Below, piece by piece: positions 17,606 through 30,367 of a DNA stretch of 64,000 nucleotides (the stretch's first letter is position 1; each line of letters starts with the position of its first letter). The notes beneath the pieces are model-generated. The model did not search any database. It was given only the letters and a program-made list of their open reading frames with translations, and was not told the DNA's origin. The position numbers and the translations under genes are program-made. This stretch comes from a virus. The stretch is taken from IMG/VR virus record IMGVR_UViG_3300017766_005733, positions 32,001 to 96,000 of that record; one strand, 5' to 3'.

Positions 17606-17650
17606 GCCACACCCCATTACCCCAGAGGCATAGCATAGATTCAACCGCGT

Positions 17651-17692
17651 AAAAAAAGCAAGATGGAGGCCGTTACCAGCCTCCATCTTGCT
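17651..17692 (-). terminator. Rho-independent terminator after the major capsid gene
   Basis: GCAAGATGGAGGC / GCCTCCATCTTGC stem followed by T7 on the minus strand. Confidence 0.85.
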
Positions 17693-17716: not shown

Positions 17717-19126
17717 TCAGCGCAGGTTGTCGATCAGCGCGTTCTTGCGGGGCTGCATGACCGCCAGCGTCGCGAAGCGGAAGTGCGCCTCGGGGATGCT
17801 GAGGTCGGCAACCGCCAGCTTCAGGCGGCTGTACGGCGCCAGTTCCTTGATCTCCATCGTATCGCCCTGAAGCAGGAAGCCGGTGACGAAGCCGGGCTGC
17901 TTGTTGCCGATGTCGATGAAGCTGGTGGTGCCGGTGGCCGCGGCCACGACGCGACCGATGAACTTCGCCGACGCCGCCGTGCCGCCAGCGGCGGAACGGT
18001 AGACGTTGAGGAAGCGGGTCGTGCCCGAGCCCGAGGGCGTGATCACCAGCGTGACGCCGTGACCGGCGGTCGCGATGGTGGCCGACGACGACAGCGAGGC
18101 CGCCGACTCACCGACTTCGTTACCAGCGGTAACGTAGTAGGTGTAGACCTCACCAGCGAGGAACGGCGTCGTGGCGCCCGAGATGGCACCCGGCGTCGCC
18201 GACGTGAGGGTCGGAGCCGACGGGCCGTCGGGACGCGACGGAGACGGACGGGTCTTGCCGCTGAGGAAGCGCGAGGCCTCCACGGCGACCGTCGCGTTCG
18301 ACGTCCACTGCTTGCGGAGGTCCGCGCCCGTCGCGCCCTGCGGCGAGCCGGCGAGGATGATGCGCTCCTTGCCGAAGACGATGCGGTTGTAGACGCTGAG
18401 GACGCGCGGGTCGACGACCAGCTTGTCCGCATTGCCCATGTGCATCGCCGAACGAACCGACGCTTCCTCGATCAGGTCCTGCGAGAGCGCGCCGCCACCG
18501 GGGACAACGCACGACTCATCGGCACCGAACTCGGCGAAGTAGCGGTCCTGCGCCGTCGCCTGATTGTCCGACTGACGGATCTGCACGTCCACGCCGATCA
18601 TGTTCGCCATGACGCCGGGGATCGCGAGCGGGTTGCCGTCGAAGACACCAGCGTTGCTGAAGTCGGCGCGACCACGGAAGAGGTCGAACTCGACGTCGGC
18701 AGCGATGATCTTCGCAGCGTCGGCAGCCGCACGGTCATCCGCAGCCACACCGTCGACCGTCGACACGAGCGTCGAGGCGATGGTCACGCGGCGGTGGTGG
18801 CTGTAGTAGCACATCGGCACGACCACACGCACGAAGTCGCTGGTCTTCTCGGCGCCGAGGTTGCCTTCCAGCTGCGCCGAACCACCGAAGTGGCCGTACG
18901 ACAGCTGACGGTCGAACTGAGCGAGGGTCGACTTGACGGCCTTCGACTTCAGCATCGACTGCAGCTTGATGTGGCTGTCGTCGAAGGTGACGTTCTCAAG
19001 GACCGGCGACAGGTCTTCGACCTGAAGCGCGGCGCCCTGAACGAGGGACGAGGGGGCAGCGTTGTAGGAGCCGGCTTCAAGGGCCTTGACCAGCTTCTCC
19101 AGCTGCTCGATGGAACTCGGGTTCAT
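17717..19126 (-). CDS. Major capsid protein (SPO1/Twort-like type)
   Basis: N-terminal LVKALEAG...GAALQVEDL, typical size, downstream of the scaffold, GGAGG RBS, strong terminator, highly biased codons. Confidence 0.85.
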   Translation of the reverse strand: MNPSSIEQLEKLVKALEAGSYNAAPSSLVQGAALQVEDLSPVLENVTFDDSHIKLQSMLKSKAVKSTLAQFDRQLSYGHFGGSAQLEGNLGAEKTSDFVRVVVPMCYYSHHRRVTIASTLVSTVDGVAADDRAAADAAKIIAADVEFDLFRGRADFSNAGVFDGNPLAIPGVMANMIGVDVQIRQSDNQATAQDRYFAEFGADESCVVPGGGALSQDLIEEASVRSAMHMGNADKLVVDPRVLSVYNRIVFGKERIILAGSPQGATGADLRKQWTSNATVAVEASRFLSGKTRPSPSRPDGPSAPTLTSATPGAISGATTPFLAGEVYTYYVTAGNEVGESAASLSSSATIATAGHGVTLVITPSGSGTTRFLNVYRSAAGGTAASAKFIGRVVAAATGTTSFIDIGNKQPGFVTGFLLQGDTMEIKELAPYSRLKLAVADLSIPEAHFRFATLAVMQPRKNALIDNLR

Positions 19127-19182: not shown

Positions 19183-20028
19183 TCACTTCAGCAGATGGGA
19201 CAACTTGCTCGCATCGACGTTGCCGCCGAGGAAGAAGTCGTTGATGAGTTCGCGATCGCTCTTGGTCAGCGACGCATCGCGGACCTTGGAGCGCAGCTTC
19301 GCGGCCATCTCCGACTTCGACAGCTTCGGCGCCACGGCGGCAGCCGCGGGCGTCAGCATGGTTTCGGCCTTGCGCATGGGCTTGGAGACGACGGCCTCAA
19401 AGGCGCCGATCACTCGCTCCAACATCTTGCCCTGCTCCTCAAGGCTCTTCTTCAGGGCGGCGACCTCGGTGGTCTCCGACTTCGCGATGGGCTTCATCTG
19501 CCCACCGTTGCCGTCGGCCTTCATCTCGCCCTTCATCGCCGGCGGCGGAGCCGCGGGAGCCGATGCCTCAGGGGCGCCGGCACCAGCAGCAGGACCACCA
19601 GCGCCCATGCCGCCACCCATCGCCGCAGCGAGGGCAGCCTGAGCCGCTTCCGCGTGCATCTTCAGTTCGTCAAGCGGCAGCTTGGCGTACTCAGACTGCA
19701 GCGCAGCCGGGTCCATGGCGCCACCAGCGTCGGGACCCTCGCCACCCTCGTCACCGGGGGCAGCCGGGTCGTCGGCCGGCGACGCGGAGGCCTCAGCGCC
19801 ATTGGCGCTTTCCTCCGACGGACCACCGTCGTCGTCTTCCGCGGCGGGGGCCGGGGCCGAAGCCTCGCCCGCGTCGTCGGCATCCATCTTCGACTTCTCG
19901 TCATCACCCGCGGCCTTGGCCAGCTTCTCAGCCCGGTCCTTCTCCGACTTCGCGATGTTGACGAGGACATTCTGGACATCGGCCAGAATGGCATCGATGT
20001 CGACGTTCGTGAGATCAGGGGTAGACAT
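19183..20028 (-). CDS. Capsid scaffolding protein
   Basis: Acidic Ala/Pro-rich coiled coil directly upstream of MCP; seven [LIM]xK[SA] motifs; AAGGAGG RBS. Confidence 0.7.
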   Translation of the reverse strand: MSTPDLTNVDIDAILADVQNVLVNIAKSEKDRAEKLAKAAGDDEKSKMDADDAGEASAPAPAAEDDDGGPSEESANGAEASASPADDPAAPGDEGGEGPDAGGAMDPAALQSEYAKLPLDELKMHAEAAQAALAAAMGGGMGAGGPAAGAGAPEASAPAAPPPAMKGEMKADGNGGQMKPIAKSETTEVAALKKSLEEQGKMLERVIGAFEAVVSKPMRKAETMLTPAAAAVAPKLSKSEMAAKLRSKVRDASLTKSDRELINDFFLGGNVDASKLSHLLK

Positions 20029-20067
20029 GGTGTAGTCCTCCTTGTTGAGTTTTGAGGAATACAACCA

Positions 20068-20526
20068 TCACTGGTTGCCGATCATCCCAAAGTCAAGGCT
20101 CGCGTCGAGGCGCACCTTCAGCTTGGACGAAACGCAGTCGGCCTCGCCCGGAGCCGCGCCGTTGGGCTCCTCAAAGACTTCCAGAGCCGCGCCCTTACGC
20201 GCGCAAACGGCGATGATCGTCGAGAGCGTGGCGAGGGTGTTGACGTCAGCACCGGCGCCAGCCGCGTTGTTCGCCTCAAAGACGACCTGAATGACGTGGG
20301 GCGAGAAGACCTGCGAGGCAACGCCAAGGACGTTGTTCGCCGTCCACGGCTGCGGGATCACGCGCAGGTAGCAACCCGCGGCACCGGCCGTGCCCGCGCC
20401 GACAACCAGCTGCGGATTGAGCAGCGAGTCCTGACCCTTGGTCTGGGGCGTGATGGACGAAAGGCGCTTGGAGAGTTCTTCGGCGATGGCGTCGAGGAGA
20501 GCGACGGCCTTCTGAGTAGCAGCCAT
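20068..20526 (-). CDS. Virion protein (possible head decoration)
   Basis: First gene of the scaffold-MCP operon; AGGAG RBS. Confidence 0.55.
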   Translation of the reverse strand: MAATQKAVALLDAIAEELSKRLSSITPQTKGQDSLLNPQLVVGAGTAGAAGCYLRVIPQPWTANNVLGVASQVFSPHVIQVVFEANNAAGAGADVNTLATLSTIIAVCARKGAALEVFEEPNGAAPGEADCVSSKLKVRLDASLDFGMIGNQ

Positions 20527-20623
20527 GTTAGACTCCTGTGAAGTTGGCTTCCGTCAAGATAACGGAAGCGAAGCATCAGATTGCGAGTTTCTCTGTGACC
20601 CATCAAAATGCTACATACAGGGT

Positions 20624-20980
20624 ATGCTTGAGTGCCGTCGCTGCCGCCAATACCTACCCGAAGACTGCTTCCACAACGACTCGTCACGGCCTACAGGAAA
20701 GGCTATGGTATGTCGCACATGTCGCAGCACTAGAGATCGCAGCGCCGAAATACGGCGTCAGGCAGCCAAAAGGCACCCGGTAGCCTGTCGAGTCTGCAGC
20801 CAACATCGCCAGCTGGTTGACGATGGCGTGTGTCGAAAATGCCTCCGGCACCAAGGGCTTCAATGGTGCCCAAGGTGCCGGGAGGTGAAGACTCTGTTTC
20901 TTGACTTCTATGGCGACGCATCGATCTGCGTCGCCTGTCGGCTATCGCGTAAGGTCGCGAACGGCGAAGCCCGTGAGTAG
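20624..20980 (+). CDS. Cys-rich Zn-finger protein on the opposite strand
   Basis: Six CxxC pairs (CRRC, CRTC, CRVC, CRKC, CPRC, CVAC). Confidence 0.55.
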   Translation: MLECRRCRQYLPEDCFHNDSSRPTGKAMVCRTCRSTRDRSAEIRRQAAKRHPVACRVCSQHRQLVDDGVCRKCLRHQGLQWCPRCREVKTLFLDFYGDASICVACRLSRKVANGEARE

Positions 20981-21175
20981 ATCGGATTTGGGCAGGTGTG
21001 GCGCCAGCCGCCGCTTGGCTTCGGCCACGAGTTCAAACAGGGGGCGATTGGCGTCCATGATGACCTCATGGTAGGGTGTGCCGATCAGTCGCACGCGCAC
21101 GCCCACCGTGCGATGACCGATGGCGATCTTGCCGTCTTCAGCCAGTGGCACCACGATATATTTGCCGTCAACCAT
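20942..21175 (-). CDS. Small hypothetical protein
   Basis: Overlaps the GGDEF gene stop; AAGGA RBS. Confidence 0.5.
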   Translation of the reverse strand: MVDGKYIVVPLAEDGKIAIGHRTVGVRVRLIGTPYHEVIMDANRPLFELVAEAKRRLAPHLPKSDLLTGFAVRDLTR

Positions 21176-22415
21176 TTTCCTTACCTCCCGGCGCCACGGT
21201 AGCGGGCTGCGGCGCGGGAGTCAAGGAGGAAGACATGGCTGGCTGCTTGAGCAGGGAGTGGAAGCGCAGGGGCTTGGTGGGCTGCACCATGCGCGCATCC
21301 ATGCCCGGATTCTGGGCAAGAGCCTCGGCGATTTCTGCCCTCTTGCCATCCTTCGCCATCAGCAGTGCATCGTCGGCGACCTTGGGGTTTTCGCCAAGGC
21401 CAACGCTGAAGCCCACCTTGTGGGTGCCGCCGACGTCTGGCAGCTTCGACAGGTTGTCGTGCAGCTGGCGCAAGACCATGTGCGCCTGCTCCGGCGTCTT
21501 CGTCCAGAAGTGGAACTCGTCGCCGCCAAACCGATGCGCCTTGGCGTTGTCGTGCCCCACCGTCTGATCGATGGCCGAACGCAGGGACTGCCCCAGAGAC
21601 TGGATGGCCTTGTCGCCTTCAGGGTGGCCATGGGCGTCGTTGATAGCCTTCATGCCGTCGCCGTCCAGCATCGCGTGGACGCCGGTCTGGGCTTCGGGGC
21701 TGGCCATGAAGTCGCGGTACGCTCGCTTGTTACCCAGCGACGGAATCATCTCGTCGTGGTAGAGTTCCTTGCGCAGGGCCTCGTAGTGGTCTTTGTGCAG
21801 GTGCCCGGCGTCAACCAGCGCCCTCAACTGCGAGAAGGTATCGTTCAGCGACGACTTCCGGAGAGGCGCAAAGGCTTCAAAAGCCTTCATCGCCGACTTC
21901 TTGAAGTCACCCAGATCCGGGGGCGTGACATAAGTGATCTTGGCTACGCCCTTCTTGGCGTTGTCCAGCATCACCTGCACATCGTCGCGCGAGACCTCTT
22001 TGCCGTCGAGAGTCAACCGGCCACTCTTCGCCTCCAGCACCCGCGGGACGCTGTAGCCCTCACGATGATAATGGAAGACGCCGTCGCGGGTCGGGGCTTG
22101 CGTGACTTCGCCGCCATCAGCGGCGTCTGAGTCACCGAAGACCTCGTTCTCCCAATCGTCGACCTGTGCCTGCTCGTTGGCCGGCTTCTTCTTGTCGACG
22201 AGGTAGTAGTGGCTGTTCATCAGCGACTCAATGCGGCTCTGGTGTCGCGCCAGAGGCTGCTCATCGAGGCCGTCAAGGATGCCTTCGTGGTCTTCCACGA
22301 CGTGGATAACGCCGTCGTGAAGGATGTACTTGCCGACAAGGCGCGGATGCACGCTCATCCGCTTGAAATCGGGATGAAGAGCGTAGACGAGATAGGTATC
22401 AAAAGTCGGCATCAT
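21168..22415 (-). CDS. GGDEF-domain diguanylate cyclase in the head operon
   Basis: LGNKRAY...MLDGDGMKAINDAHGHPEGDKAI...HRFGGDEF...FSVG...ADDALLMAK; catalytic motif intact. Confidence 0.88.
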   Translation of the reverse strand: MMPTFDTYLVYALHPDFKRMSVHPRLVGKYILHDGVIHVVEDHEGILDGLDEQPLARHQSRIESLMNSHYYLVDKKKPANEQAQVDDWENEVFGDSDAADGGEVTQAPTRDGVFHYHREGYSVPRVLEAKSGRLTLDGKEVSRDDVQVMLDNAKKGVAKITYVTPPDLGDFKKSAMKAFEAFAPLRKSSLNDTFSQLRALVDAGHLHKDHYEALRKELYHDEMIPSLGNKRAYRDFMASPEAQTGVHAMLDGDGMKAINDAHGHPEGDKAIQSLGQSLRSAIDQTVGHDNAKAHRFGGDEFHFWTKTPEQAHMVLRQLHDNLSKLPDVGGTHKVGFSVGLGENPKVADDALLMAKDGKRAEIAEALAQNPGMDARMVQPTKPLRFHSLLKQPAMSSSLTPAPQPATVAPGGKENG

Positions 22416-22418
22416 GGC

Positions 22419-25400
22419 TCAGACCTTATCCTTCGGACGCAAGATGTCAAGAGAGGTCTGGGGCGCAACACCGAGCGACTGCAAAGCACGCAGAAGTTCG
22501 GCCTTGGAAAGAGTCGCCAGCCCCTCGCCGGCAGACTTCTCAAGGGTGCTCTTGCTGCACTTCCAGCGCTTGAGGGCCGCCCCCTTCGGAGTCAGCTTGC
22601 CGTCCTTCGATGTGGGTCCCTTGACACCGCTCATCCGCGCACAAAAACTCTTGCGCCTCTTGGCGGCTTTGGAGCCGGGCTCGACCTTGCCCGTCACAGG
22701 CCTCTTGAGGTTGCTGCCCTCTTCGCGATTGACCTTCTCGCGGTAGGAATCGCTCAGACCCCCGCTGCGACTGTGACGATTCTTGTTGTAGCCGTGGAAA
22801 GGCTTGTCTGCCTTGTCGAGGGCGTCGTCGAGATCCTTGGAGACTTCAGTCTCAGCGATCTTTTCTCCAGTCTTTTCGTCGTAGATGCACAGGTGGCTGC
22901 CTTCTTCGTGATGGCAGTGCTCGACGATGTAGGCCCCAATGTGGACATGATCTGTTCCACACTCAGAGCACTCCTCATCGTCGTGCGCGTCTTCGTTGTC
23001 AGTCTTCTTCATCTTCCGAGTGGGGCCTGAGGTGGAAGCCGACTTCATCCCCGACCAATCGCTTCGCTGCCAGTCCTCGGGTTCATCCGAGTGCAGTTCC
23101 TGTCCCGCGGGCGCAAAGTCCTTGCCTTCAAACAGTCCGCGATCAGACCACGGCGCCGGCGTATCCGTCGTTGCGCCGGGTTTCGTCCAAGCGTCGCGCA
23201 GCGCATAGAAGTCACGCATGACGCCATCGACGGCTCGATCGCCCAGCCCCATCCCCTCCATCTCCGCTCGCAGTTTTGGGCCATTCAGATTCCGAAGCCA
23301 TTCGACGGCATCGGGATGGACCGGGGATGACTTCGGGTCCATCATCGCGCGGCCGGCAACCCTGCCCTTGCTTTGAGCCGCGGGACGCGCCTTTTCAAAC
23401 TCGTACACCTTCAGGTAATGGGGCTTGCGGAGTTCCCGCGGCTGCAGCCCCGACCCCGGCTCTTGATGAAGCTGAGCCTCCAGCGACTGCGTTCCTTCTT
23501 GCGCTGTGTTGCGGAAGGTGTGGCCGTGGTCGATCAGCTTGAGGCTCAGCTTACCGTCGTCGGCGCGCGAGAACAGGTAGTTGTTGCCGTGGCGATCGTC
23601 GTTGCCAAGGATGTAGTTCATGGCCGCCAACTTGTGCAGTTCGCCGGCATCGCCGAGGTGCATCAGCGTCTTCAGGTGTGCTGCACTGCCGGAGTTGTGA
23701 TGCTCCGGGTTCTTGACCATCTCCTGCATGCTCATTTCCCAGCCGCCGGGATGGTTGGCCATCGCCGTCAGCGGGACGTACTCGCCGAGACCAAAGACGT
23801 CGCGCGCCAGATTGTGGTACGCAGTTTCGCGAGCCCCCATGTGCGGATACGACCACTCGTGGCCATGCTTCACGAGCACCAACCGCTTGCCGTCGGGATG
23901 CGGAATCCACATCTGCGTTGGCGACGTCAGCGATTCTGTGGCGTGAACAGGCTTGGCCTTCAGGTTCCGGCTCAGATCCACGCCGTCAATCAGCGCCTTC
24001 TGCTCTGGCGTGTTGTTGATGCGATCGCTGCCATCGGCAGCCGTGATCTTGACGGCGGCGATGCGCTTTGGGTTTTTCTCGACCAGATCCGCTTCCTGAG
24101 CCAATCCCAGCGAATGCCGCGACGAGTCAGCGGGGCCTTCACCCCTCGTCGGCGCGGCTTCAGTAGGGTTTCCGTTGGCCTTCTTCAGCTGAGCCGCGGC
24201 GTTGCGAACCTCGACCGACAGCTTCTCGGCCTTGAGGATCGGGTCCTCGTTCTCTGAGCCGTGCATGAGCAGCGGCAGCAGCTGCGAGTAGTAGCGGAAC
24301 GAGGCCTCTTCTTCGCCGTGGTGATTGATCCAGTGACGAACAAGGGCGGCGGCAAGACGCGGATCGATGAGCGGACCCGACCTTTCGGACTTCTTGAAGC
24401 CAAAGCGCAGATTGGCCTGCGGCGCCGGCGATTCGGGCAGCGGCGTCGAGCGGGCTGGAACCGTCTGTTGCGATTCCTTGGGGTCCTGCAGGAGGCGCTG
24501 AACTTCGTCAAACAGAGGACGGTGGCTGGCCGCCTGATTGTGAGCGACGTTCGCTCGCTTGTGCTCCATCAAGCGCTCGTGCGGAGCGATCGAAAGCCAG
24601 TGCCCCCAGAAAGCCGGGAAAACCGCCTGTTCCGGGTTGTCCTTGAAGTAGGATCCAAACTCCGGATGCTGAAGCATCAGCTTTACCGACGGATGATTGC
24701 GGTAATACCAGCGATCCATCGCCGACAGAAGTTCGCTATTCTTCGGGTTCCAAAGAATGTCATCGCGAACGTGGTGGATCGAGTTCTTGTCTTTGTCCTT
24801 GTCAAGACCAAAGAGATGGCGGCTGAAGTGAGTGTCGGGGACGAAGGAGTTGCCGGCCCCCAGCATCGCGTAGGCGAAGCGCGCGGTCTTGGGCGCCAGC
24901 CCCGGAATGTGCAGACCCTGAAAAGCACCCGGATCGGGCTTGCCCTTATCGAGCGCTCGCTTGCGGGAAGCCTCCCACAACTCCGCCTTGCCCTTGTTGC
25001 CCATCAACTCAGCCACCGCCGAACGACCGTCAACGCCGTGGCGAGCCACGAGATCCTTCATGTGCTGGTGAGCATCTGCGTAGCGCGCCATGTTGGCGAA
25101 CTTGTTGTGCGGCAGCATGAAGGAAGTGCGCTCGCCGGCGAGGCGTCCCGTCTGCGTGGAATCTCGCTGATTCGTCACGAGGTTGCCGATGTGCTGCGTG
25201 AAGTAGTCGCGCGACGACTGCGGCCAAGCCTGCGGCTGGTCGCGCGACATCCAGTCCTGCTTGACCTCCGGAGACCCGAAGCGTGGATCGCGGATGTCCA
25301 TGCCCTTGTCCTTGAAGGTGTCCAGCAGGTAGCTGTACATCATTTCATGAACGGGCACGGGTGTGTTGGGGCTCAACTGCGAGAAGGCCACCGACGTCGC

Positions 25401-27128
25401 CAGCACCGCCTCTGGCAGCCGCCCCTGCTTCAGGGCCTGATTCAGCTTGATCCAGTTGCCAACAGCGTAGTCGTGCTGGCGGCGAACCTCAGGTGAGTTC
25501 CAAACCTGACGGAACTTCTCGCCTGAATCACTATCGGCATCCGGGTTGTAGAGGCTGAAGTGGCCGTTCTTGGTCTTCAACTGGCCTGTGTGCTCGTTGA
25601 ACGTCATCTCCGGACCCGAAAGGCCCGTGGGCTTGACGCCTTCGCCGCGGATCGTAAACGCAGGAGCCTCAGGAGCCTTGGGCGCTTTAGCGGCGGGGGC
25701 CTTCGGGGCGGGCGCGGCCTTCTCTGGAGCAGAAGCCTTCTCTGGAGCAGCAGCCTTCGGCTCCGCGGCCTTGCGGGCCTTTGCCAGCGGCTCAGCCTTC
25801 CGCAGCTTCGCGCGGATGTCGGTGGCGAGGTCGGTGAAGTGATCGAGGTAGTTGTCGCTGACCTCCGGAAGCTGAGACTTCAGAAAGTCGCGCATGCTGC
25901 CCTTTGACTCATGGTATTCCTGAGCCAACTTCACCAGCTTCTTCGCCAGTTCCTCGCGCTGCAGAGCCGCGCCGCCCATGAGGCTAGAGGGCGAGCCGGT
26001 GGCCATGCCCGCGTCCATTGCCTTCTTCATGCCCGTCTCCTGTTCACTCTTGCGCGCCTTCGACTCAGTGATGTCGATGGCGTCCATGGTCTTGAGTCCG
26101 ACCTTCTTGGCCGCAAAATGACGGTGATTGCCGTCGACGATGTCCCAGCCCCCGGCTCCGGAGCGGCGAACGACGGCCGGCGGCAGCTTGTCGTGCTGCG
26201 CCATCTGAACGTACATCGCATAGCGATCGTAGTTCTTGATGGGGTTGAGGTTCTGGGCGCTGTCGACGTCGATCGTGATCTTCTTGCCGCCGCCAAAGTG
26301 CTGCTTCAGGGCCTTCTCGTACGCGCCATCCCAGCGCTTGCGATCGGGAGTGCCGGCACGGGGGATAACGACGCCGTCCTCGGACTCCCACTGCTTTGGG
26401 GGCTTGGGGGGCTTCGGCAACACCGGCTTCTTGGCAGCCGGCTTCGGCTCCTTGGAGGCCTTCAGTGCCTTCCAGAGGGTCTGCTGCTCAGCCGCATCCT
26501 GCTCGATCTCGCCCGAAGAGCCGAGGCGGCCGTAGAGCGGGTGCTCTTTCTTCACCAACTCGGCGATCGGCTTCTTGGGCTTCTTCTCGTAGCCCTCGGG
26601 GGCGTTGGGGTCGACCACGAGGTCGCTGTCGCAGGTCTTGTTGCAGGGCTTGATGGTCAGCGCCACGCGACGCGCGATCGTGCGCTTGAGTTTGTTGCCA
26701 TCGCGCTCCAGCGTGGAGCCGTCGATCGAGAACCGGACAAGGATCTGTTCCTTGTTCTTCACCGCGTCACGGACCTGAGCAGCCAGCCCCTGAGCCGAGA
26801 GGTGACCGGCGCCGTCATAGAGCCGCACCATGCCGTAGATGAAGGGCACCTTGACCTTTTTCCAGAACATCTTCTGGCGGTCGTCGTCGGCGTCCGACTC
26901 CTGCATGATCTTCTTGGCGAAAACGATCTTGCCGACGATGTCCTGCGACGTAGCGCCGGTGGACTCGTCGTTGCGGTGCTCGTAGTTGGCGAGCCCACGC
27001 CCCTCGATCATCTCACTGATGTCACAGCCCTCGATGTCGAGGACTTCACCACTGGAATCCCATACCTGACTGGCAAAAATGCCATCAAGAATCATTCCAT
27101 TGGAACCATCAATGATGTCGTTGTTCAT
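22419..27128 (-). CDS. Prohead protease fused to ParB-like, HhH-glycosylase-like, kinase-like and DUF6321-like domains (1569 aa)
   Basis: N-terminus GIFASQVWDSSGE...NYEH...FSIDG (phage maturation protease); IVDGNHR; IPGLAPKTARF...PDTHFSR; GNDDRHGNNYL...IDHG; RRKSFCARM...ALKRWKC. Sits between portal/MuF and scaffold. Confidence 0.8.
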   Translation of the reverse strand: MNNDIIDGSNGMILDGIFASQVWDSSGEVLDIEGCDISEMIEGRGLANYEHRNDESTGATSQDIVGKIVFAKKIMQESDADDDRQKMFWKKVKVPFIYGMVRLYDGAGHLSAQGLAAQVRDAVKNKEQILVRFSIDGSTLERDGNKLKRTIARRVALTIKPCNKTCDSDLVVDPNAPEGYEKKPKKPIAELVKKEHPLYGRLGSSGEIEQDAAEQQTLWKALKASKEPKPAAKKPVLPKPPKPPKQWESEDGVVIPRAGTPDRKRWDGAYEKALKQHFGGGKKITIDVDSAQNLNPIKNYDRYAMYVQMAQHDKLPPAVVRRSGAGGWDIVDGNHRHFAAKKVGLKTMDAIDITESKARKSEQETGMKKAMDAGMATGSPSSLMGGAALQREELAKKLVKLAQEYHESKGSMRDFLKSQLPEVSDNYLDHFTDLATDIRAKLRKAEPLAKARKAAEPKAAAPEKASAPEKAAPAPKAPAAKAPKAPEAPAFTIRGEGVKPTGLSGPEMTFNEHTGQLKTKNGHFSLYNPDADSDSGEKFRQVWNSPEVRRQHDYAVGNWIKLNQALKQGRLPEAVLATSVAFSQLSPNTPVPVHEMMYSYLLDTFKDKGMDIRDPRFGSPEVKQDWMSRDQPQAWPQSSRDYFTQHIGNLVTNQRDSTQTGRLAGERTSFMLPHNKFANMARYADAHQHMKDLVARHGVDGRSAVAELMGNKGKAELWEASRKRALDKGKPDPGAFQGLHIPGLAPKTARFAYAMLGAGNSFVPDTHFSRHLFGLDKDKDKNSIHHVRDDILWNPKNSELLSAMDRWYYRNHPSVKLMLQHPEFGSYFKDNPEQAVFPAFWGHWLSIAPHERLMEHKRANVAHNQAASHRPLFDEVQRLLQDPKESQQTVPARSTPLPESPAPQANLRFGFKKSERSGPLIDPRLAAALVRHWINHHGEEEASFRYYSQLLPLLMHGSENEDPILKAEKLSVEVRNAAAQLKKANGNPTEAAPTRGEGPADSSRHSLGLAQEADLVEKNPKRIAAVKITAADGSDRINNTPEQKALIDGVDLSRNLKAKPVHATESLTSPTQMWIPHPDGKRLVLVKHGHEWSYPHMGARETAYHNLARDVFGLGEYVPLTAMANHPGGWEMSMQEMVKNPEHHNSGSAAHLKTLMHLGDAGELHKLAAMNYILGNDDRHGNNYLFSRADDGKLSLKLIDHGHTFRNTAQEGTQSLEAQLHQEPGSGLQPRELRKPHYLKVYEFEKARPAAQSKGRVAGRAMMDPKSSPVHPDAVEWLRNLNGPKLRAEMEGMGLGDRAVDGVMRDFYALRDAWTKPGATTDTPAPWSDRGLFEGKDFAPAGQELHSDEPEDWQRSDWSGMKSASTSGPTRKMKKTDNEDAHDDEECSECGTDHVHIGAYIVEHCHHEEGSHLCIYDEKTGEKIAETEVSKDLDDALDKADKPFHGYNKNRHSRSGGLSDSYREKVNREEGSNLKRPVTGKVEPGSKAAKRRKSFCARMSGVKGPTSKDGKLTPKGAALKRWKCSKSTLEKSAGEGLATLSKAELLRALQSLGVAPQTSLDILRPKDKV

Positions 27129-27425: not shown

Positions 27426-28163
27426 TCAGCCGCGACCTCGCTGGGTTGCGTATTCGTTGTGACCCCGGCCAACGAAGCGAACCATCCCAGCGGCGTCAAA
27501 GCCATAGCCGGGCATCAGTGTGGCGAGACTGCAGCGGCAATGGGGATGTAGCCCGTTGACCTTGGGATTGTTCTCGCCTCGCTTGTGGTAGCCGGTCCCG
27601 ACCTCGGACATCTTCCAGACACGCGGCGTGACGCCATCAGGCATCAGGTGCAGTCGCGTGCATTCCTTGCACCGAAGTCCATCGCGGACCACGACGAAGA
27701 AGACCATCGCGTCATCGATGCCCGCCTGCAGGTTCAGCATCGTGATGCCCTCCAGAGTGCCCGTGGCGCGGCTGCGCTGGGTCTCCGTGTCGGCAATACG
27801 CATCACGTCGTTCGTGACCTTGGACCAGACGTCCACCAGCTTGCCGGCAAGGGCACCGGAACTCGGCTGCCCCTCCTGCTCCGCCGACAAAACATGGTGA
27901 AGGACTTCGGCCTTTGCGCGCTCCCTCGCTGAATCGAGGTAGGAGCCGGCGATGTTGACGACACCCAAGAGCGTCTTGGGGCTCATCTTGGCGCCGTCAT
28001 CTGCGGCCGCGGCGGTAGCAATGCCCGCCAGCGTCAAGTCCGGGCGATCGGACGTGACCGTCAGCGTCTTGTCGACCAGCCGCACCCCCAGAAACCGCGC
28101 CTTGATGCGTTCAAAAAGGCTGTCGATGGCTGCGTGGATGCGGCTGATGGTCTGCTTCTTCAC
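27426..28163 (-). CDS. MuF-like head morphogenesis protein
   Basis: RIADTE...CKEC...LHPHCRC; immediately after the portal. Confidence 0.8.
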   Translation of the reverse strand: MKKQTISRIHAAIDSLFERIKARFLGVRLVDKTLTVTSDRPDLTLAGIATAAAADDGAKMSPKTLLGVVNIAGSYLDSARERAKAEVLHHVLSAEQEGQPSSGALAGKLVDVWSKVTNDVMRIADTETQRSRATGTLEGITMLNLQAGIDDAMVFFVVVRDGLRCKECTRLHLMPDGVTPRVWKMSEVGTGYHKRGENNPKVNGLHPHCRCSLATLMPGYGFDAAGMVRFVGRGHNEYATQRGRG

Positions 28164-28165
28164 GG

Positions 28166-30367
28166 CTACTCCCCGATGTCTTCATCGGCTGATAGCGCGC
28201 GGCCGATCTCGGCCAGAGCGGCGCGAGAGTCATCCTCCCACGTCTTCTGGAAGCGATCGACGATGGCTCGATGCTTGGCCAGCAGCTTGCGCTTGGACGG
28301 CGACAGCGTGGCTTCCGACTTTAGCATCTCCGAAGCCTGATCGAGGCCGCGCGTCAGGTCACCGCCAGCCTGCTCAGCCGCCTGCTGAGACTGCTGCTGC
28401 GAGGACTCGGCGGTCGCCGCCTGCTGGGAGGCCTCTGCCTGCTGAGCCTCACCCTTGCCCGGCTGCGGACCCCCACCGCCGCCACCACCTCCACCGCCAC
28501 CTCCGCCATCCTGCGGCGGCTGCCCACCCTGCTGCTGGGCCGCCTGCTCCTGCATCTGCTGCTGTTGCTGCATCTGCTGAACCTGCATCTGCAGCTGCTG
28601 CCACTGGAACCAGAAGGGGTCGCGAACGTAAGCCAGCTTGGGGTCCTTGGCCGCACCCTTTTGACCGAAGAAGTGCTCCTTGATCTGGCCCACCGTCAGG
28701 TACTTGTCGACGACCGCCTGCCACTGGGCGTTGAAGGGGAAGTCGCCGCCAAGTTCCTCGGGGATCTCTTCCTTCTCGACCTTGTTCAGGACCTCGTTGT
28801 AGGTCATGTGCAGCGGCGCGTCCTGCTGCAGTCGGATCGATTCCTTCTCGGCCGTCTCAGCATCCAAGCCCATCAACTGGATTTCGCACTTGCCAACGAG
28901 GTTGGGCGCGATCAGGGGCAGAAGCTGGGCGTTGATGAAGTCCTGCCACGCCAAGAGCAGTGGGCGCAAGCCGACGTCGCGGTGAGCAATCATCAGGTAC
29001 TCCTGATTGCTCTCCGACAGCGCCTGATTGTTGGTACCGCGGCTGAGGTGGGCGTAGCCGGGTAGTTCTTCCGGCGACATCTGGAAGGCCGACAAGATGA
29101 TGCGGGCCGTCATGTCGCTCAGGTACTGGAACTCCATGTCGCGCTGACTGGCATCCGTCGAAACCCACTCAATGTTTTCCTCGACGCCAACGCCCAGCAC
29201 CGGCACGCGCCAGCTGTTCTGCACGCTGTTGATGGCGGCGTTGAACTGCTGGCGGATGTCGTTGATCATCGAGTCATCGACGTCATCGGACTTGATGATG
29301 AGGATGCCGCGGCTGGCGCGGCCGCTCTGGAAGTACAGCTTGTTGTGGGTCGTGATGTTGATATGCGTCGTGACAGCGGCAATGACCGTGTCGAGGGGCG
29401 ACAACGGATAGCCGCGGAACTCAACGTCGGCGACGGGGTAGAAGTTGTAGACGAGGCATTCCTCGGCAGTGAACGACTGTCGCGGCTGCCCTTCCAGAAC
29501 CTGAATCCAAGCGATGTCTTCCGGCGTCACCGTGTTGTTGGGTTCGTGCTCCAGCTTCTTGCGCTTGATGCGCTCAAGCAGCCTCGCCGCCGTCTCACGC
29601 AACTCCACCGCCATCTGGTTCATTGGCACGGAACGGTAGATGGTGCCGGCGTCGATGGGACGGAAGGAGTGGAACTCGCGACGTCCCGTGTGGACGTTGT
29701 AGACCCAAATGATTTCGGTGGCCACGCGCCCCAGCACCACCGCATTCTTCGTCGAGACCGTCAGGTACTGGCTGAAGGTCATCTGCTCTTGATCCGACCA
29801 GCCCTTCGTCTGACCGCAAGATCGCAGCAGTTCGGACGCTCGCTTGATCTCTTCGTCAAGAGCCCTCTGCTCTTCGGGCTCCAGTGACTCCTCGACTCCC
29901 GGAATCGGGACAATCCCAAAGCCCACGCCGTGGCGATCACGACGAGGACGACCAAAGGAGCCGATGTGGTTGCCGCGGGTGTTGACGATCGAGGCAACGA
30001 GGCTGTCCTGAATGGCAATCCGCTTCAGGATGCTGTCGGGGATGCCACGCAGCTTCTGCTGCCACAGCCCCTGATTGCTGCCGACCTGACTCGGGTCCAC
30101 CTCAAAGGCCAGACGCTCGATGGACGTCTCGCCGCCGTTGAGGAGGTTCATCAGGCTCTTGGCAAGACGCTGATGGCCAACGACGGGCCCGGCGTCGGGG
30201 ACCGTCGGGAGAGAGTCCAACTTCTCGACCGTCAGCACAGGCTGCGGCATCGATGGGTCGGTGAAACGCACCTGCCGCCGACTCTTGCTGAGCCCCTCGG
30301 TCTTTGGCGTCGCGGACTTGATGAGGGCCTGAAAGTACGCGGAAGTGGGATTACTGGGAGTTGTCAC
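28166..30367 (-). CDS. Portal protein
   Basis: FRPIDAGTI...GYPLSPLD...YFQSG...RDMEFQ...FQMSPEELPG...GLRPLL; downstream of terminase. Confidence 0.88.
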   Translation of the reverse strand: MTTPSNPTSAYFQALIKSATPKTEGLSKSRRQVRFTDPSMPQPVLTVEKLDSLPTVPDAGPVVGHQRLAKSLMNLLNGGETSIERLAFEVDPSQVGSNQGLWQQKLRGIPDSILKRIAIQDSLVASIVNTRGNHIGSFGRPRRDRHGVGFGIVPIPGVEESLEPEEQRALDEEIKRASELLRSCGQTKGWSDQEQMTFSQYLTVSTKNAVVLGRVATEIIWVYNVHTGRREFHSFRPIDAGTIYRSVPMNQMAVELRETAARLLERIKRKKLEHEPNNTVTPEDIAWIQVLEGQPRQSFTAEECLVYNFYPVADVEFRGYPLSPLDTVIAAVTTHINITTHNKLYFQSGRASRGILIIKSDDVDDSMINDIRQQFNAAINSVQNSWRVPVLGVGVEENIEWVSTDASQRDMEFQYLSDMTARIILSAFQMSPEELPGYAHLSRGTNNQALSESNQEYLMIAHRDVGLRPLLLAWQDFINAQLLPLIAPNLVGKCEIQLMGLDAETAEKESIRLQQDAPLHMTYNEVLNKVEKEEIPEELGGDFPFNAQWQAVVDKYLTVGQIKEHFFGQKGAAKDPKLAYVRDPFWFQWQQLQMQVQQMQQQQQMQEQAAQQQGGQPPQDGGGGGGGGGGGGGPQPGKGEAQQAEASQQAATAESSQQQSQQAAEQAGGDLTRGLDQASEMLKSEATLSPSKRKLLAKHRAIVDRFQKTWEDDSRAALAEIGRALSADEDIGE

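What the first reader, a model, noticed from the sequence alone, without database searches (positions are those of the whole stretch)
22419..27128. Prohead protease fused to a chain of effector domains
Seen: a ~200-aa maturation protease is followed by ParB-like (IVDGNHR, ~26060-26400), HhH-GPD-like (IPGLAPKTARF...PDTH, ~24390-25620), PI3K/HipA-like kinase (DRHGNN...IDHG, ~23050-24180) and DUF6321-like (KSFCARM, ~22555-22810) domains. Each is flanked by xxK[SA] linkers (LWKAL, ARKSE, LRKAE, FKKSE, ILKAE, LDKAD, LEKSA). Inference: the protease is its own cargo carrier, guaranteeing encapsidation and self-release of DNA-acting and signalling enzymes.
Basis: partly seen in the sequence, partly recalled or inferred. 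Interest (0 to 1): 0.78.

Follow-up and report, generated by a model that had tools for sequence, protein, structure and literature searches.

The report
Capsid protease fused to enzyme cargo
In this relative of Myxococcus phage Mx1, the enzyme that matures the virus head is the first part of a 1569-residue chain that also holds a ParB-like module, a DNA-glycosylase-like enzyme, a lipid-kinase-like kinase and a DUF6321 module, probably cut apart inside the young head.

Summary
Window 22419-27128 (-) is one uninterrupted 1569-aa ORF in the head module of an Mx1-like phage, between the portal/MuF-like genes and the GGDEF/scaffold/capsid genes.

- Residues 1-185 fold like T4 gp21 and the herpesvirus assemblins. 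His51 and Ser134 are invariant in 52 sequences.
- Downstream lie a weak ParB-N match, a copy of the capsid protein's N-terminal arm, and an HhH-GPD glycosylase fold (Z 14.2; Lys747 and Asp765 invariant).
- Then come a PI3/4-kinase-like core (DRHxxN...IDHG) and DUF6321.
- The linkers carry hydrophobic-x-K-[S/A] motifs. The same motif is invariant at the capsid protein's N-terminus. It is about 5-fold enriched in the structural gene block only.
- In a staphylococcal-phage relative, a deposited capsid chain starts exactly after the homologous Lys.
- In IMG/VR, 48 of 49 complete ORFs with this protease are at least 500 aa. Glycosylase, kinase, GGDEF, ParB and DUF6321 modules come and go.

Self-processing is likely. 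Packaging and delivery of the enzymes are inferred, not shown. Assemblin-like peptidases in polyvalent proteins are published, but as C-terminal domains, so this is a new variant of a known kind.

This scan has already reported the same system in at least eight other Mx1-like genomes. New in this member are the ParB insertion and the DUF6321 tail.

The parts
22419..27128 (-). Whole ORF, 1569 aa plus stop (P0001): protease-cargo polyprotein
   Evidence: 100% match in its own genome, no stops
26574..27128 (-). aa 1-185: capsid-maturation serine protease domain (assemblin / T4 gp21 fold). His51 codon at 26976-26978, Ser134 codon at 26727-26729
   Evidence: AF2 pLDDT 87.9. VIA: 5jbl T4 gp21 Z 9.7, VZV protease Z 9.4, HCMV Z 7.6, KSHV Z 6.0, next hit 4.5. 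Foldseek top rows are herpesvirus proteases and gp21. H51 and S134 invariant in 52 sequences. tblastn to Bacillus SPO1-like phages, one hit annotated prohead protease, two hypothetical protein, E 6e-6 to 9e-6
26463..26477 (-). LWK|AL (aa 218-222): candidate cut site upstream of the ParB cassette
   Evidence: sequence; lies in a low/middling-confidence helix of the model; not conserved family-wide
26061..26381 (-). aa 250-356: ParB N-terminal/Srx-like cassette (IVDGNHR), inserted between the protease and the arm segment
   Evidence: Pfam ParB_N E 6.9e-4, below cut-off; Spo0J 6sdk E 6.6e-4; TIGR00180 E 1e-3; phrog_8071. Present in 10 of 69 family members
26043..26057 (-). ARK|SE (aa 358-362): candidate cut site downstream of the ParB cassette
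25797..26045 (-). aa 362-444: 'arm' segment, a copy of the capsid protein's N-terminal arm. It begins at MKK|AMDAG (K369) and ends at LRK|AE (K444)
   Evidence: BLASTP of MCP 7-62 against aa 362-419: 22/58 identical, E 2e-7. K369 invariant and K444 >=90% in 31 sequences. The same segment follows the protease in Bacillus phage Adastra and in Mx1. Present in 68 of 69
25656..25796 (-). aa 445-491: Pro/Ala/Lys-rich linker
   Evidence: sequence
24414..25655 (-). aa 492-905: HhH-GPD superfamily DNA-glycosylase-like domain. Lys747 codon at 24888-24890, Asp765 codon at 24834-24836
   Evidence: AF2 pLDDT 94.9, pTM 0.92. VIA ranks 1-25 are all HhH-GPD-fold enzymes: TM1821 Ogg Z 14.2 with 208 of 209 residues aligned, then a drop to 3.8. 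K747, R750, D765 and H767 invariant in 46 sequences, K747/D765/H767 also in 9. No sequence-level match
24384..24398 (-). FKK|SE (aa 911-915): best-conserved candidate cut site
   Evidence: K913 >=90% conserved. K[SA][ED] at this or the adjacent column in 36 of 69 sequences. Lies in the low-confidence end of the model
24231..24389 (-). aa 914-966: small helical module ending at ILK|AE (K966)
   Evidence: present in 64 of 69; K at the 966 column in 60 of 68
23229..24077 (-). aa 1018-1300: PI3/PI4-kinase-like (HipA-like) kinase core. Lys1087; DRHGNN at 1178-1183; IDHG with Asp1200
   Evidence: Pfam PF00454 at 24.8 bits, below cut-off; 15 of 31 relatives match at E<=1e-3 and two reach the cut-off. 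D1178, R1179 and D1200 invariant; K1087 and N1183 >=90% in 18 sequences. The 60 best of 154 PDB profile rows are all PI3K/PI4K/mTOR, best E 0.007
22785..23228 (-). aa 1301-1448: Cys/His-rich segment of unknown function, ending at LDK|AD
   Evidence: no family match; 6 of 69 rows matched this segment's profile, but only P0002-P0004 align to it by BLASTP
22563..22775 (-). aa 1452-1522: DUF6321 domain
   Evidence: Pfam E 3.9e-12, above cut-off; phrog_10346, 4689 and 727; tblastn to pelagiphage and cyanopodovirus ORFs
22422..22562 (-). aa 1523-1569: C-terminal tail with LEK|SA and LSK|AE
   Evidence: The LSKAELLRALQ stretch looks like an HeH/SAP-type helix; this is recalled, not tested
17717..19126 (-). 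Major capsid protein (469 aa), with the conserved N-terminal site LVK14|A15LEAG
   Evidence: phrog_752 E 3.7e-48. PDB relatives: SPO1 Gp6.1 9vel and 5lii. L12, K14 and E17 invariant and A15 >=90% in 26 MCPs
19183..20064 (-). Scaffold-like protein (293 aa), carrying 5 copies of the motif
   Evidence: 5 observed against 0.5 expected; syntenic with the Adastra scaffold gene
21168..22415 (-). GGDEF cyclase gene (415 aa) starting 3 nt after the ORF's stop. In relatives the same module is fused to the protease chain
   Evidence: Pfam GGDEF E 3.3e-11; fused in 10 of 31 relatives and in several IMG/VR loci
27426..28163 (-). MuF/SPP1 gp7-like minor head protein (245 aa)
   Evidence: phrog_2662 and phrog_115
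28166..30367 (-). Portal protein (733 aa)
   Evidence: Pfam Phage_portal E 3.7e-14

Best explanation
The ORF encodes the phage's prohead (capsid-maturation) serine protease as the N-terminal domain of a polyprotein.

Proposed mechanism:
1. A segment copied from the capsid protein's N-terminal arm (aa 362-444) takes the chain into the assembling procapsid. The Herelleviridae-type proteases carry the same segment.
2. Once inside, the protease cuts after Lys in hydrophobic-x-K|[S/A] sites. These are the same sites it uses on the capsid protein (K14|A15), the scaffold and other head-module proteins.
3. This separates the chain into protease, ParB-like module, arm, HhH-GPD glycosylase/lyase-like enzyme, small helical module, PI3/4-kinase-like kinase and DUF6321 tail.
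4. The folded enzymes (30-50 kDa) are too large to leave through the shell. They probably stay in the head as internal proteins and enter the next host with the DNA.

Status of each step:
- Shown: the fold and invariant catalytic residues of three enzyme domains; the synteny; the conservation and enrichment of the motif; the modular variation among relatives.
- Inferred: cleavage at these sites; the docking role of the arm; retention in the capsid; ejection.
For: Protease:
- Predicted fold: T4 gp21 Z 9.7 and VZV protease Z 9.4, with the next unrelated hit at 4.5. Foldseek top rows are herpesvirus proteases and gp21.
- H51 and S134 are invariant in 52 sequences.
- The gene lies between the portal/MuF genes and the scaffold/MCP genes, as in Mx1 and in Bacillus phage Adastra.

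Cut sites:
- The MCP N-terminus has L12, K14 and E17 invariant and A15 >=90% in 26 MCPs, after a variable 10-15-residue leader.
- A PDB chain (9row/9rox/9roz, 439 aa) has the same sequence as the 463-aa MCP of 5lii but starts 24 residues later. It begins at the Ser that follows the Lys aligned to K14.
- K369 is invariant, and K444 and K913 are >=90% conserved, inside otherwise poorly conserved linkers.
- K[SA][ED] recurs at aligned positions 912/913 in 36 of 69 sequences, at 966 in 15, at 442/444 in 17 and at 192/193 in 16.
- [LIVMFAWC]xK[SA][ED] occurs 31 times against 6.0 expected in the 32 ORFs of the minus-strand structural block. It occurs 5 times against 9.5 expected in the other 93 ORFs.

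Docking segment:
- MCP 7-62 against aa 362-419: 22/58 identical, E 2e-7.
- The same segment follows the protease in Adastra and in Mx1.

Cargo looks catalytic:
- HhH-GPD fold, Z 14.2, with invariant K747 and D765 spaced 18 residues apart.
- Kinase residues K1087, D1178, N1183 and D1200 are conserved, and the PDB profile hits PI3K/PI4K/mTOR only.

Fusion is the rule and it is modular:
- 48 of 49 complete IMG/VR ORFs are >=500 aa.
- 133 of the 150 best cluster representatives are >=500 aa, median 1039 aa.
- Kinase and GGDEF are fused in some phages and separate genes in others.
- On a protease-domain tree the C-terminal module state needs at least 14 changes.
Against: - No proteomic or N-terminal sequencing data exist for any member. 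The Mx1 genome paper, main text and the first part of its reference list read (part 1 of 2), says nothing about this gene. Cleavage, packaging and ejection are therefore untested.
- The protease has no Pfam S78/S77 match. PHROG support is weak (E 2e-4 and 9e-4).
- The glycosylase relation is structural only. Pfam and three PDB sequence/profile searches found no glycosylase. I could not superpose K747 and D765 on known catalytic residues.
- The ParB and kinase scores for this protein are below the Pfam cut-offs.
- K[SA] alone is common: 31 occurrences in the ORF. One K[SA]E (K714) lies inside a confident helix and is not conserved. The motif alone therefore does not define a site.
- The structural block in the enrichment test was delimited after the counts were seen, and the motif was derived partly from two of its proteins. 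Without those two the count is 20 against about 4.5 expected.
- A ClpP-like ORF lies elsewhere in the genome.
- If every protease copy carries cargo, each head would have to hold many copies of about 170 kDa of protein.
Confidence: 0.6

Rival explanations
1. The chain is a protease-scaffold/core protein, comparable to the herpesvirus UL26 product. It is loaded and cut, but the extra domains mainly serve as bulk or as DNA-organising core inside the head, or they act in the producing cell late in infection. They have no role in the next host.
For: Protease-scaffold fusions are the established pattern in herpesviruses and in P2 (established knowledge, recalled). HhH-GPD and the small helical module are near-universal in the clade (64 of 69), which fits a structural core better than swappable effectors. 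HhH and ParB-like modules bind DNA.
Against: The catalytic Lys/Asp of the glycosylase-like domain and the Lys/Asp/Asn/Asp of the kinase are conserved across distant members. That argues for enzymatic function. A separate scaffold-like gene exists. Cyclase and kinase modules are hard to explain as packing material.
Confidence: 0.22
2. The polyprotein is not cut between the cargo domains. The conserved K-[S/A]-E patches are contact or charge motifs, for example for scaffold or portal binding. The protein works as one large polyvalent internal protein.
For: Some polyvalent proteins, such as the N4 virion RNA polymerase, are packaged unprocessed (passage read in PMC5512222). At position 966 the residue after Lys is often Met or Phe rather than Ser or Ala.
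Against: The same L-x-K-A motif is invariant at the MCP N-terminus. A mature chain of a related phage starts exactly after the homologous Lys. The motifs fall at domain borders and in low-confidence linkers. Modules are fused or separate at these borders in relatives.
Confidence: 0.1
3. The N-terminal domain is an inactive docking module. Another enzyme, for example the ClpP-like ORF at G000:C1:7125-7610, is the real head protease.
For: A ClpP-family ORF is present, E 1.2e-14. ClpP/S49-type head proteases exist in other phages (Felix O1 passage).
Against: His51 and Ser134 are invariant in 52 sequences. The ClpP-like ORF lies about 47 kb from the head genes, on the other strand, among small genes. 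The MCP and its N-terminal site are of the Herelleviridae type, whose protease is the homologue of this N-terminal domain.
Confidence: 0.05
4. The long ORF is an assembly or gene-calling artefact that joins separate genes.
For: Nothing beyond its unusual length.
Against: There are no stops over 4710 nt. The 1525-aa relative P0003 is about 80% identical over 100% of the length. 68 protease-bearing relatives of 862-2746 aa were found, and 48 of 49 complete IMG/VR ORFs are >=500 aa. The Mx1 isolate genome has a 1239-aa orthologue.
Confidence: 0.01

Closest known systems
Myxococcus phage Mx1 WNM70322.1, 'putative prohead protease' (1239 aa; OR576727.2)
   Same: Orthologue. It covers residues 9-1188 at 34% identity, E 1e-108. 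It has the same head-module synteny, with a nucleotide cyclase gene downstream, and the same protease-arm-HhH-GPD-kinase order.
   Different: Mx1 lacks the ParB insertion, the Cys/His-rich segment and the DUF6321 tail. Its record names only the protease, and the genome paper does not discuss it.
Herelleviridae (SPO1/Okubovirus/Kayvirus-type) prohead protease with its capsid protein
   Same: The protease domains are homologous (31% identity, E about 1e-5). The MCPs are homologous (9vel E 1.7e-18, 5lii E 1.4e-15). The x-K|[S/A]-LEAG site and the arm-like segment occur in both MCP and protease. The mature chain starts after the homologous Lys (that 5lii/9row are Staphylococcus phage phi812 is my recollection, not stated by the call).
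   Different: The Herelleviridae protease is about 250 aa (protease plus arm) and carries no enzyme cargo.
Herpesvirus assemblin precursor (UL26 / UL80a): N-terminal protease fused to a scaffold, with self-cleavage at R and M sites
   Same: Same protease fold. Same logic: an N-terminal protease, a linker, a capsid-targeting part and self-release (established knowledge, recalled).
   Different: The herpesvirus extension is scaffold, not enzymes. Its sites are Ala|Ser rather than Lys|Ser/Ala.
T4 gp21 with the head-packaged, gp21-processed proteins (IPI-III, Alt); phiKZ/SPN3US proteases with ejection proteins
   Same: A head protease trims proteins that are loaded into the prohead and later ejected. 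SPN3US: abstracts seen in the search listings. T4 and phiKZ: recalled.
   Different: In those systems the cargo is encoded by separate genes with targeting peptides and is cut after Glu. Here the cargo is covalently joined to the protease, and the sites have Lys at P1.
Polyvalent proteins of phages and conjugative elements (Iyer, Burroughs, Anand, de Souza, Aravind 2017, PMC5512222)
   Same: Many unrelated enzymatic domains sit in one phage polypeptide that is probably packaged in the capsid. ParB-like, kinase, GGDEF and assemblin-like peptidase domains are all listed there (passages read).
   Different: [quoted passage not shown] The word 'glycosylase' occurs 0 times in its main text. Its kinase family is a truncated Ser/Thr/Tyr-kinase type, not PI3/4K-like. 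Its supplementary architecture files could not be seen.
MuF-domain polymorphic toxins / SPP1 gp7-type head proteins fused to effector domains
   Same: A head-internal assembly protein serves as a carrier for variable C-terminal effector modules (recalled; MuF is discussed in PMC5512222, seen only as a term count in the listing).
   Different: The carrier there is the MuF domain, not the protease. Here a separate MuF-like gene lies upstream.

Membership tests
Capsid-maturation serine proteases of the assemblin / HK97 gp4 / T4 gp21 fold (MEROPS clan SH) | Assemblin-type fold | tested here: met
   AF2 model pLDDT 87.9. VIA: 5jbl Z 9.7 (rmsd 3.1, 127 aligned), 1vzv Z 9.4, 8j3s Z 7.6, 1fl1 Z 6.0, next 4.5. 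Foldseek top rows are all herpesvirus proteases and gp21, best E 1e-3
Capsid-maturation serine proteases of the assemblin / HK97 gp4 / T4 gp21 fold (MEROPS clan SH) | Conserved catalytic His and Ser | tested here: met
   H51 and S134 are invariant in 52 sequences and in 31. Their spatial equivalence to the catalytic residues of gp21 or assemblin was not checked
Capsid-maturation serine proteases of the assemblin / HK97 gp4 / T4 gp21 fold (MEROPS clan SH) | Gene sits in the head module between portal and capsid protein | tested here: met
   By my reading of the table, portal lies upstream on the same strand in 61 of 72 IMG/VR loci
Capsid-maturation serine proteases of the assemblin / HK97 gp4 / T4 gp21 fold (MEROPS clan SH) | Match to a curated family model (Pfam Peptidase_S78 or S77) | tested here: not met
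   No Pfam hit at E<=1. PF04586 and PF03420 do not ring in the genome; the S77 control rang nowhere, so that search is uninformative. Only phrog_1028 hits weakly
Capsid-maturation serine proteases of the assemblin / HK97 gp4 / T4 gp21 fold (MEROPS clan SH) | Proteolytic processing of capsid and scaffold proteins | not testable with these tools
   Indirect only: conserved K|[S/A] sites and the start of a mature chain in a relative
HhH-GPD superfamily DNA glycosylases (Ogg2/AGOG/EndoIII type) | Two-lobed helical HhH-GPD fold | tested here: met
   Model pLDDT 94.9. VIA ranks 1-25 are all of this fold: 3n0u Z 14.2, rmsd 3.1, 208 of 209 residues aligned; next unrelated 3.8. Foldseek is weak only (3fhf prob 0.92, E 0.12)
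HhH-GPD superfamily DNA glycosylases (Ogg2/AGOG/EndoIII type) | Hairpin Gly-x-x-x-Lys followed by a catalytic Asp about 18-20 residues later (the pattern of bifunctional enzymes) | tested here: inconclusive
   PGLAPK747TAR...VPD765TH, spacing 18. K747, D765 and H767 are invariant in 46 and in 9 sequences. Equivalence to the catalytic Lys/Asp of Ogg/Nth rests on recalled spacing (hOGG1 K249/D268; Nth K120/D138), not on a superposition
HhH-GPD superfamily DNA glycosylases (Ogg2/AGOG/EndoIII type) | Sequence-model match (Pfam HhH-GPD PF00730, or solved glycosylases) | tested here: not met
   No hit in Pfam at E<=1 or in PDB sequence/profile searches
PI3/PI4-kinase-like kinases (Pfam PF00454; HipA-like relatives) | Score at or above the family cut-off | tested here: inconclusive
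   P0001 scores 24.8 bits against a cut-off of 27.1. Relatives P0064 (27.5) and P0065 (28.6) pass. 15 of 31 relatives match at E<=1e-3. Atlas neighbours include PF00454 and HipA_2 clusters
PI3/PI4-kinase-like kinases (Pfam PF00454; HipA-like relatives) | Catalytic loop DRHxxN, metal-binding Asp (DxG) and ATP-binding Lys | tested here: met
   D1178, R1179 and D1200 invariant; K1087 and N1183 >=90% in 18 sequences. The profile aligns to the Vps34 GDRHLDN...IDFG stretch, E 0.007, and all 60 best rows are PI3K/PI4K/mTOR
ParB N-terminal / sulfiredoxin-like domain (PF02195) | Family-model match and the DGxHR box | tested here: inconclusive
   20 bits against a cut-off of 26.3. Four libraries hit the same stretch at E 6e-4 to 6e-3. 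IVDGNHR is present in the sequence
DUF6321 (PF19846) | Family-model match above cut-off | tested here: met
   47.1 bits against 28.5, profile positions 2-72 of 72
Polyvalent proteins (Iyer et al. 2017) | Several unrelated enzymatic domains in one polypeptide, encoded with portal/terminase genes | tested here: met
Polyvalent proteins (Iyer et al. 2017) | Assemblin-like peptidase, when present, lies at the C-terminus | tested here: not met
   Here it is N-terminal. In 146 of the 150 best representatives the match starts within the first 36 residues. The paper's passage was read

The most novel reading that the evidence does not exclude
A whole clade of roughly 130-200-kb Mx1-like phages has turned its prohead protease into a modular loading vehicle. 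Each protease copy that enters the procapsid drags in a bifunctional DNA glycosylase/lyase and a PI3/4-kinase-like kinase or a GGDEF cyclase. In this lineage it also carries a ParB-like module and a DUF6321 module. The protease then cuts them free at its own Lys|Ser/Ala sites. Every virion therefore injects tens to hundreds of copies of DNA-damaging and signalling enzymes ahead of gene expression. This would be a stoichiometrically guaranteed effector-delivery route, distinct from targeting peptides and from MuF carriers.
Probability: 0.35. Interest if true: 0.8.

Novelty: new variant of a known kind. Interest (0 to 1): 0.62.

Why it matters
If the cargo is packaged and injected, this is a simple, evolvable way for a phage to deliver enzymes. 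Fusion to the one protein that must enter every prohead guarantees loading, and that protein's own cut sites act as release points.

Three consequences follow:
- It would add a DNA glycosylase/lyase and a PI3/4-kinase-like kinase to the short list of virion-borne phage enzymes.
- It would link virion cargo to cyclic-dinucleotide signalling, because the GGDEF cyclase is fused in relatives.
- It would give a predictable motif (hydrophobic-x-K|S/A) for reading head proteomes of Mx1-like and Herelleviridae-type phages.

Mx1 is cultivable on Myxococcus xanthus, so the idea can be tested directly. The design could also guide protein loading into engineered capsids.

Tried and rejected
- Megablast of the 10.4-kb head region against GenBank phages: no match.
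- Sequence routes to solved structures: the whole-family profile A1 gave 0 hits at E<=1. The HhH-GPD-only profile A6 gave only two chance-level rows, bL20 and rabaptin. The glycosylase assignment therefore rests on predicted structure.
- Foldseek of the central domain against PDB gave nothing at E<=1e-3. ACE/transporter rows with TM about 0.1 were ignored as helical noise.
- BFVD gave only uncharacterised large Caudovirales proteins, best E 2e-3.
- The Atlas pointed to DUF7178 clusters for the central domain. No Pfam scan supported that, so I dropped it.
- Literature on the cut specificity of Herelleviridae proteases: searches, and passages from the 7-7-1, Felix O1 and ISP papers, gave nothing usable.
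- I considered cleavage after Glu (T4/phiKZ style). I prefer cleavage after Lys because only K|[S/A] unifies the MCP site (K-A-L-E) with the linker sites (K-S/A-E), and because.
- My first kinase HMM, cut from the family alignment, was contaminated by GGDEF rows. I replaced it with motif counts and the clean alignment A4.
- I tested whether the phage modifies its DNA, which could make a packaged glycosylase host-specific. Thymidylate synthase and TGT families are absent from this 80%-complete record. No support, and no exclusion either.
- Complex prediction with MCP 63-469 and arm 362-444 returned 'no answer' (score 0.00, controls not run). It counts neither for nor against docking.
- In-print check for a protease-cargo fusion: searches found only the polyvalent-protein paper.
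- The tree used the quick method and regex labels, so the change counts are rough.

Full report
**What is there**

The window is bases 32001-96000 of a 131,625-bp IMG/VR virus record, estimated 80% complete. Its G+C content is about 0.60-0.66.

On the minus strand, 22419..27128 is a single ORF of 1569 aa without stops. Its GC3 of 0.78 matches the neighbouring genes. The long plus-strand ORFs that overlap it are the usual shadows of a G+C-rich coding region.

The gene order on the minus strand is:
- large-terminase-like ORF (named by synteny with Mx1's terminase gene)
- a 323-aa ORF
- portal (Pfam Phage_portal, E 3.7e-14)
- a 245-aa MuF/gp7-like minor head protein
- this ORF
- a GGDEF cyclase, starting 3 nt after the stop
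- a 152-aa ORF
- a 293-aa scaffold-like protein
- the major capsid protein (phrog_752, E 3.7e-48)

The only substantial match among GenBank phages is Myxococcus phage Mx1. There a 1239-aa ORF annotated 'putative prohead protease' covers residues 9-1188 at 34% identity (E 1e-108) in the same gene order. The Mx1 genome announcement does not discuss this gene; I read part 1 of 2 (the main text and the first part of the reference list).

**The protease**

Residues 1-230 were folded with an alignment of 52 sequences and gave a confident model (pLDDT 87.9). The model is ordered up to about residue 180.

The wide structural search ranks T4 gp21 first (5jbl, Z 9.7, rmsd 3.1, 127 residues). The varicella-zoster, cytomegalovirus and KSHV proteases follow (Z 9.4, 7.6, 6.0). 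The next, unrelated hits score Z 4.5. Foldseek's top rows are likewise herpesvirus proteases and gp21, best E 1e-3.

Both are invariant in 52 sequences.

At the sequence level the domain hits three Bacillus SPO1-like phage ORFs (one, in Adastra, annotated prohead protease; the other two hypothetical protein) at 31% identity, E 6e-6 to 9e-6. It hits phrog_1028 only weakly. It has no Pfam match. So it has the fold, residues and genomic place of a capsid-maturation protease, but it is not a member of a curated sequence family.

A ClpP-like ORF lies about 47 kb away on the other strand. I regard it as an unlikely rival.

**The cargo domains**

- ParB-like. Four libraries hit the same stretch, aa 294-400: Pfam ParB_N E 6.9e-4, Spo0J 6sdk E 6.6e-4, TIGR00180 E 1e-3 and phrog_8071 E 5.6e-3. 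All are below the curated cut-offs, so this is a probable ParB-N/Srx-like module.
- HhH-GPD. Residues 488-915 were folded with 46 sequences and gave pLDDT 94.9 and pTM 0.92. The 25 best rows of the wide structural search are all HhH-GPD-fold enzymes. They include Thermotoga Ogg TM1821 (Z 14.2, 208 of its 209 residues aligned), Mag1, the queuine-salvage enzyme DUF2419, hOGG1, endonuclease III, MagIII, ROS1, NTHL1, AlkA, MutY, AGOG and MBD4. After them Z drops to 3.8.
  - The motif PGLAPK(747)TAR...VPD(765)TH is invariant at K747, R750, D765 and H767 in 46 sequences (K747, D765 and H767 also in 9).
  - The Lys-to-Asp spacing of 18 is that of bifunctional glycosylase/lyases. This comparison rests on recalled residue numbers, not on a superposition.
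  - No sequence method sees the relationship.
- Kinase. Pfam PI3_PI4_kinase scores 24.8 bits against a cut-off of 27.1.
  - 15 of 31 relatives match at E<=1e-3, and two exceed the cut-off.
  - In a clean alignment of 18 kinase segments, D1178, R1179 and D1200 are invariant, and K1087 and N1183 are >=90% conserved.
  - A profile of that alignment finds only PI3K, PI4K and mTOR catalytic loops among its 60 best PDB rows, best E 0.007.
- DUF6321. It is a clear match at 47.1 bits.
- Residues 1301-1448 have no known family.

**The arm segment and the cut sites**

Residues 362-419 are a copy of capsid-protein residues 7-62: 22/58 identical, E 2e-7.

The 253-aa protease of Bacillus phage Adastra and the Mx1 protein carry the same segment straight after the protease domain. 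Their capsid proteins begin with it as well. The ancestral unit is therefore protease plus arm. In the present lineage a ParB cassette has been inserted between the two.

In all these proteins the segment starts with hydrophobic-x-K-[A/S]-[L/M]-[E/D]-A-G.
- In 26 capsid proteins of the clade, L12, K14 and E17 are invariant and A15 is >=90% conserved. The 10-15 residues before them vary.
- The Protein Data Bank holds two versions of one related capsid protein. One is 463 aa (5lii). The other is 439 aa (9row, 9rox, 9roz) and starts 24 residues later, at the Ser that follows the Lys aligned with K14.
- I take the shorter chain to be the mature protein. This is an inference; no paper confirming it was found.

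Within the polyprotein, K369 is invariant and K444 and K913 are >=90% conserved, although the linkers around them are not. K[SA][ED] recurs at aligned positions 912/913 in 36 of 69 sequences, at 966 in 15, at 442/444 in 17 and at 192/193 in 16.

Genome-wide, over 125 crude ORFs with 300 shuffles each, [LIVMFAWC]xK[SA][ED] occurs as follows:
- 31 times against 6.0 expected in the 32 ORFs of the minus-strand structural block
- 5 times against 9.5 expected in the other 93 ORFs

That block was delimited after I had seen the counts, and the motif was partly derived from two of its proteins. Without those two, 20 occurrences remain against about 4.5 expected.

Not every K[SA] is a site. The ORF has 31 of them. 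K714 lies inside a confident helix and is not conserved.

**Relatives**

A length-limited search (862-2746 aa) found 83 proteins. Of these, 68 share the protease and 15 share only DUF6321.

Among the 69 protease-bearing proteins, the query included:
- the arm is present in 68
- HhH-GPD and the small helical module are each present in 64
- the ParB cassette is present in 10
- DUF6321 is present in 8 (the segment profile hit 23 of all 84 proteins)
- the kinase motif is present in 41 and a GGDEF motif in 7, by strict patterns

Pfam on 31 of them counts PI3_PI4_kinase in 15, GGDEF in 10, DUF6321 in 5, ParB_N in 2, an intein splicing domain in 2 and Phage_L5_gp82 in 1.

A search that was not limited by length, through IMG/VR, gave 72 loci.
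- By my reading of the table, portal lies upstream on the same strand in 61 loci.
- 30 loci reach a capsid gene downstream.
- Of 68 distinct ORFs, 49 are complete. Of those, 48 are >=500 aa and 23 are >=1000 aa. Only one, of 327 aa, is a bare protease.

The exhaustive search of 1.84 billion representatives found 770 clusters at E<=1e-3. Among the best 150, the median length is 1039 aa and 133 are >=500 aa. The protease match starts within the first 36 residues in all but 4. Some of the short ones may be truncated.

Kinase and GGDEF are fused in some phages and separate downstream genes in others, for example L022 and this window.

On a quick protease-domain tree the C-terminal module state needs at least 14 changes, where shuffled labels need 23-27. 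ParB needs 3, HhH-GPD 5 and DUF6321 4.

One correction applies: the glycosylase-like and kinase modules are a conserved core rather than free cargo.

**How it most likely works**

- The chain enters the procapsid as the head protease, probably through its capsid-arm copy. This step is inferred. The one complex prediction gave no answer and counts for nothing.
- It then cuts itself and the capsid, scaffold and other head-module proteins after Lys in LxK|S/A sites. This is inferred from conservation, enrichment.
- The released 30-50-kDa enzymes stay in the head and enter the next cell with the DNA. This is inferred from their size and by analogy with the T4 internal proteins, Alt and the SPN3US ejection proteins.
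- The conserved catalytic residues argue that the glycosylase/lyase-like and kinase modules are active enzymes. Their targets are unknown.
- I found no thymidylate-synthase-type or TGT-type DNA-modification gene in this incomplete record that could make a packaged glycosylase host-specific.

**Comparison with what is known, and novelty**

The nearest sequence relatives are the Mx1 orthologue and the small Herelleviridae proteases.

The nearest logic is the herpesvirus UL26 protease-scaffold precursor, together with the gp21/CTS system of T4.

The nearest published concept is the polyvalent protein of Iyer et al. 2017. That paper lists assemblin-like peptidases as rare and 'always' C-terminal, and does not mention glycosylases (passages read; supplements not seen).

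My literature searches found no description of an N-terminal head protease carrying glycosylase and kinase modules. I therefore rate it a new variant of a known kind.

**Earlier findings of this scan**

The scan itself has already reported the same system in at least eight other Mx1-like genomes. The present analysis reaches the same reading independently. It adds the following:
- the PDB-chain evidence for the Lys cut
- the length-unbiased tallies
- the genome-wide enrichment control
- the ParB insertion and DUF6321 tail that are particular to this lineage

Noticed in passing
relatives P0002 (aa 617-1003), P0004 (aa 605-991), P0034 (aa 508-780); insertion points correspond to window ORF residues about 599-605 and 585-589: Intein-like insertions of 340-400 aa interrupt the HhH-GPD domain of close relatives. 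They sit next to the invariant SPNTPVP..E motif (aa 586-595). The Pfam Intein_splicing matches are weak (E 1.6e-4 to 4e-3, below cut-off). Inteins tend to sit in conserved sites of important proteins, which would argue that this domain matters.
   Followed up: partly
window 6577-11052 (-): A 1491-aa multi-domain protein among the structural genes starts with a Nudix domain (NCBIfam E 1e-9) and carries 3 copies of the linker motif against 0.7 expected. It is probably a second cargo polyprotein.
   Followed up: partly
window 4529-6580 (-): A 683-aa protein has 3 K[SA]E motifs against 0.35 expected and a weak SCO1664-family hit at aa 539-580.
   Followed up: partly
window 21168-22415 (-): A GGDEF cyclase gene with an intact GGDEF motif and a roughly 190-aa N-terminal part that ends in FKK|SA and LRK|SS. 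The same module is fused to the protease chain in relatives, so it may be head cargo too.
   Followed up: partly
G000:C1:7125-7610 (+), outside the window (ORF 6921-7658): A ClpP-family protease ORF (E 1.2e-14) lies far from the head genes. Its role is unknown.
   Followed up: no
window 16196-17686 (-): A 496-aa ORF directly downstream of the capsid gene has HTH motifs and a weak REase_MTES_1575 match. Its GC3 (0.64) is lower than its neighbours'. It may be a mobile or homing-type insertion.
   Followed up: no
window 20525-20980 (+): A 151-aa plus-strand ORF rich in CxxC pairs lies in the gap between the 152-aa gene and the GGDEF gene. Its GC3 is only 0.57, so it may not be a gene.
   Followed up: no
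window 22422-22562 (-), aa 1523-1569; also the scaffold C-terminus, 19183-20064 (-): The tail motif LSKAELLRALQ resembles the LSKSEMAAKL stretch of the scaffold and the LSKNELALYLQ stretch near the end of the Adastra protease. It may be an HeH/SAP-like helix rather than, or as well as, a cut site. This resemblance is recalled, not tested.
   Followed up: no
proteins P0070-P0084: DUF6321 also sits in the middle of 15 other large proteins (866-1564 aa) that lack the protease. Some of them carry PF18905 or NUDIX. It also occurs in small ORFs of pelagiphages and cyanopodoviruses. It may be a common module of phage cargo proteins.
   Followed up: no
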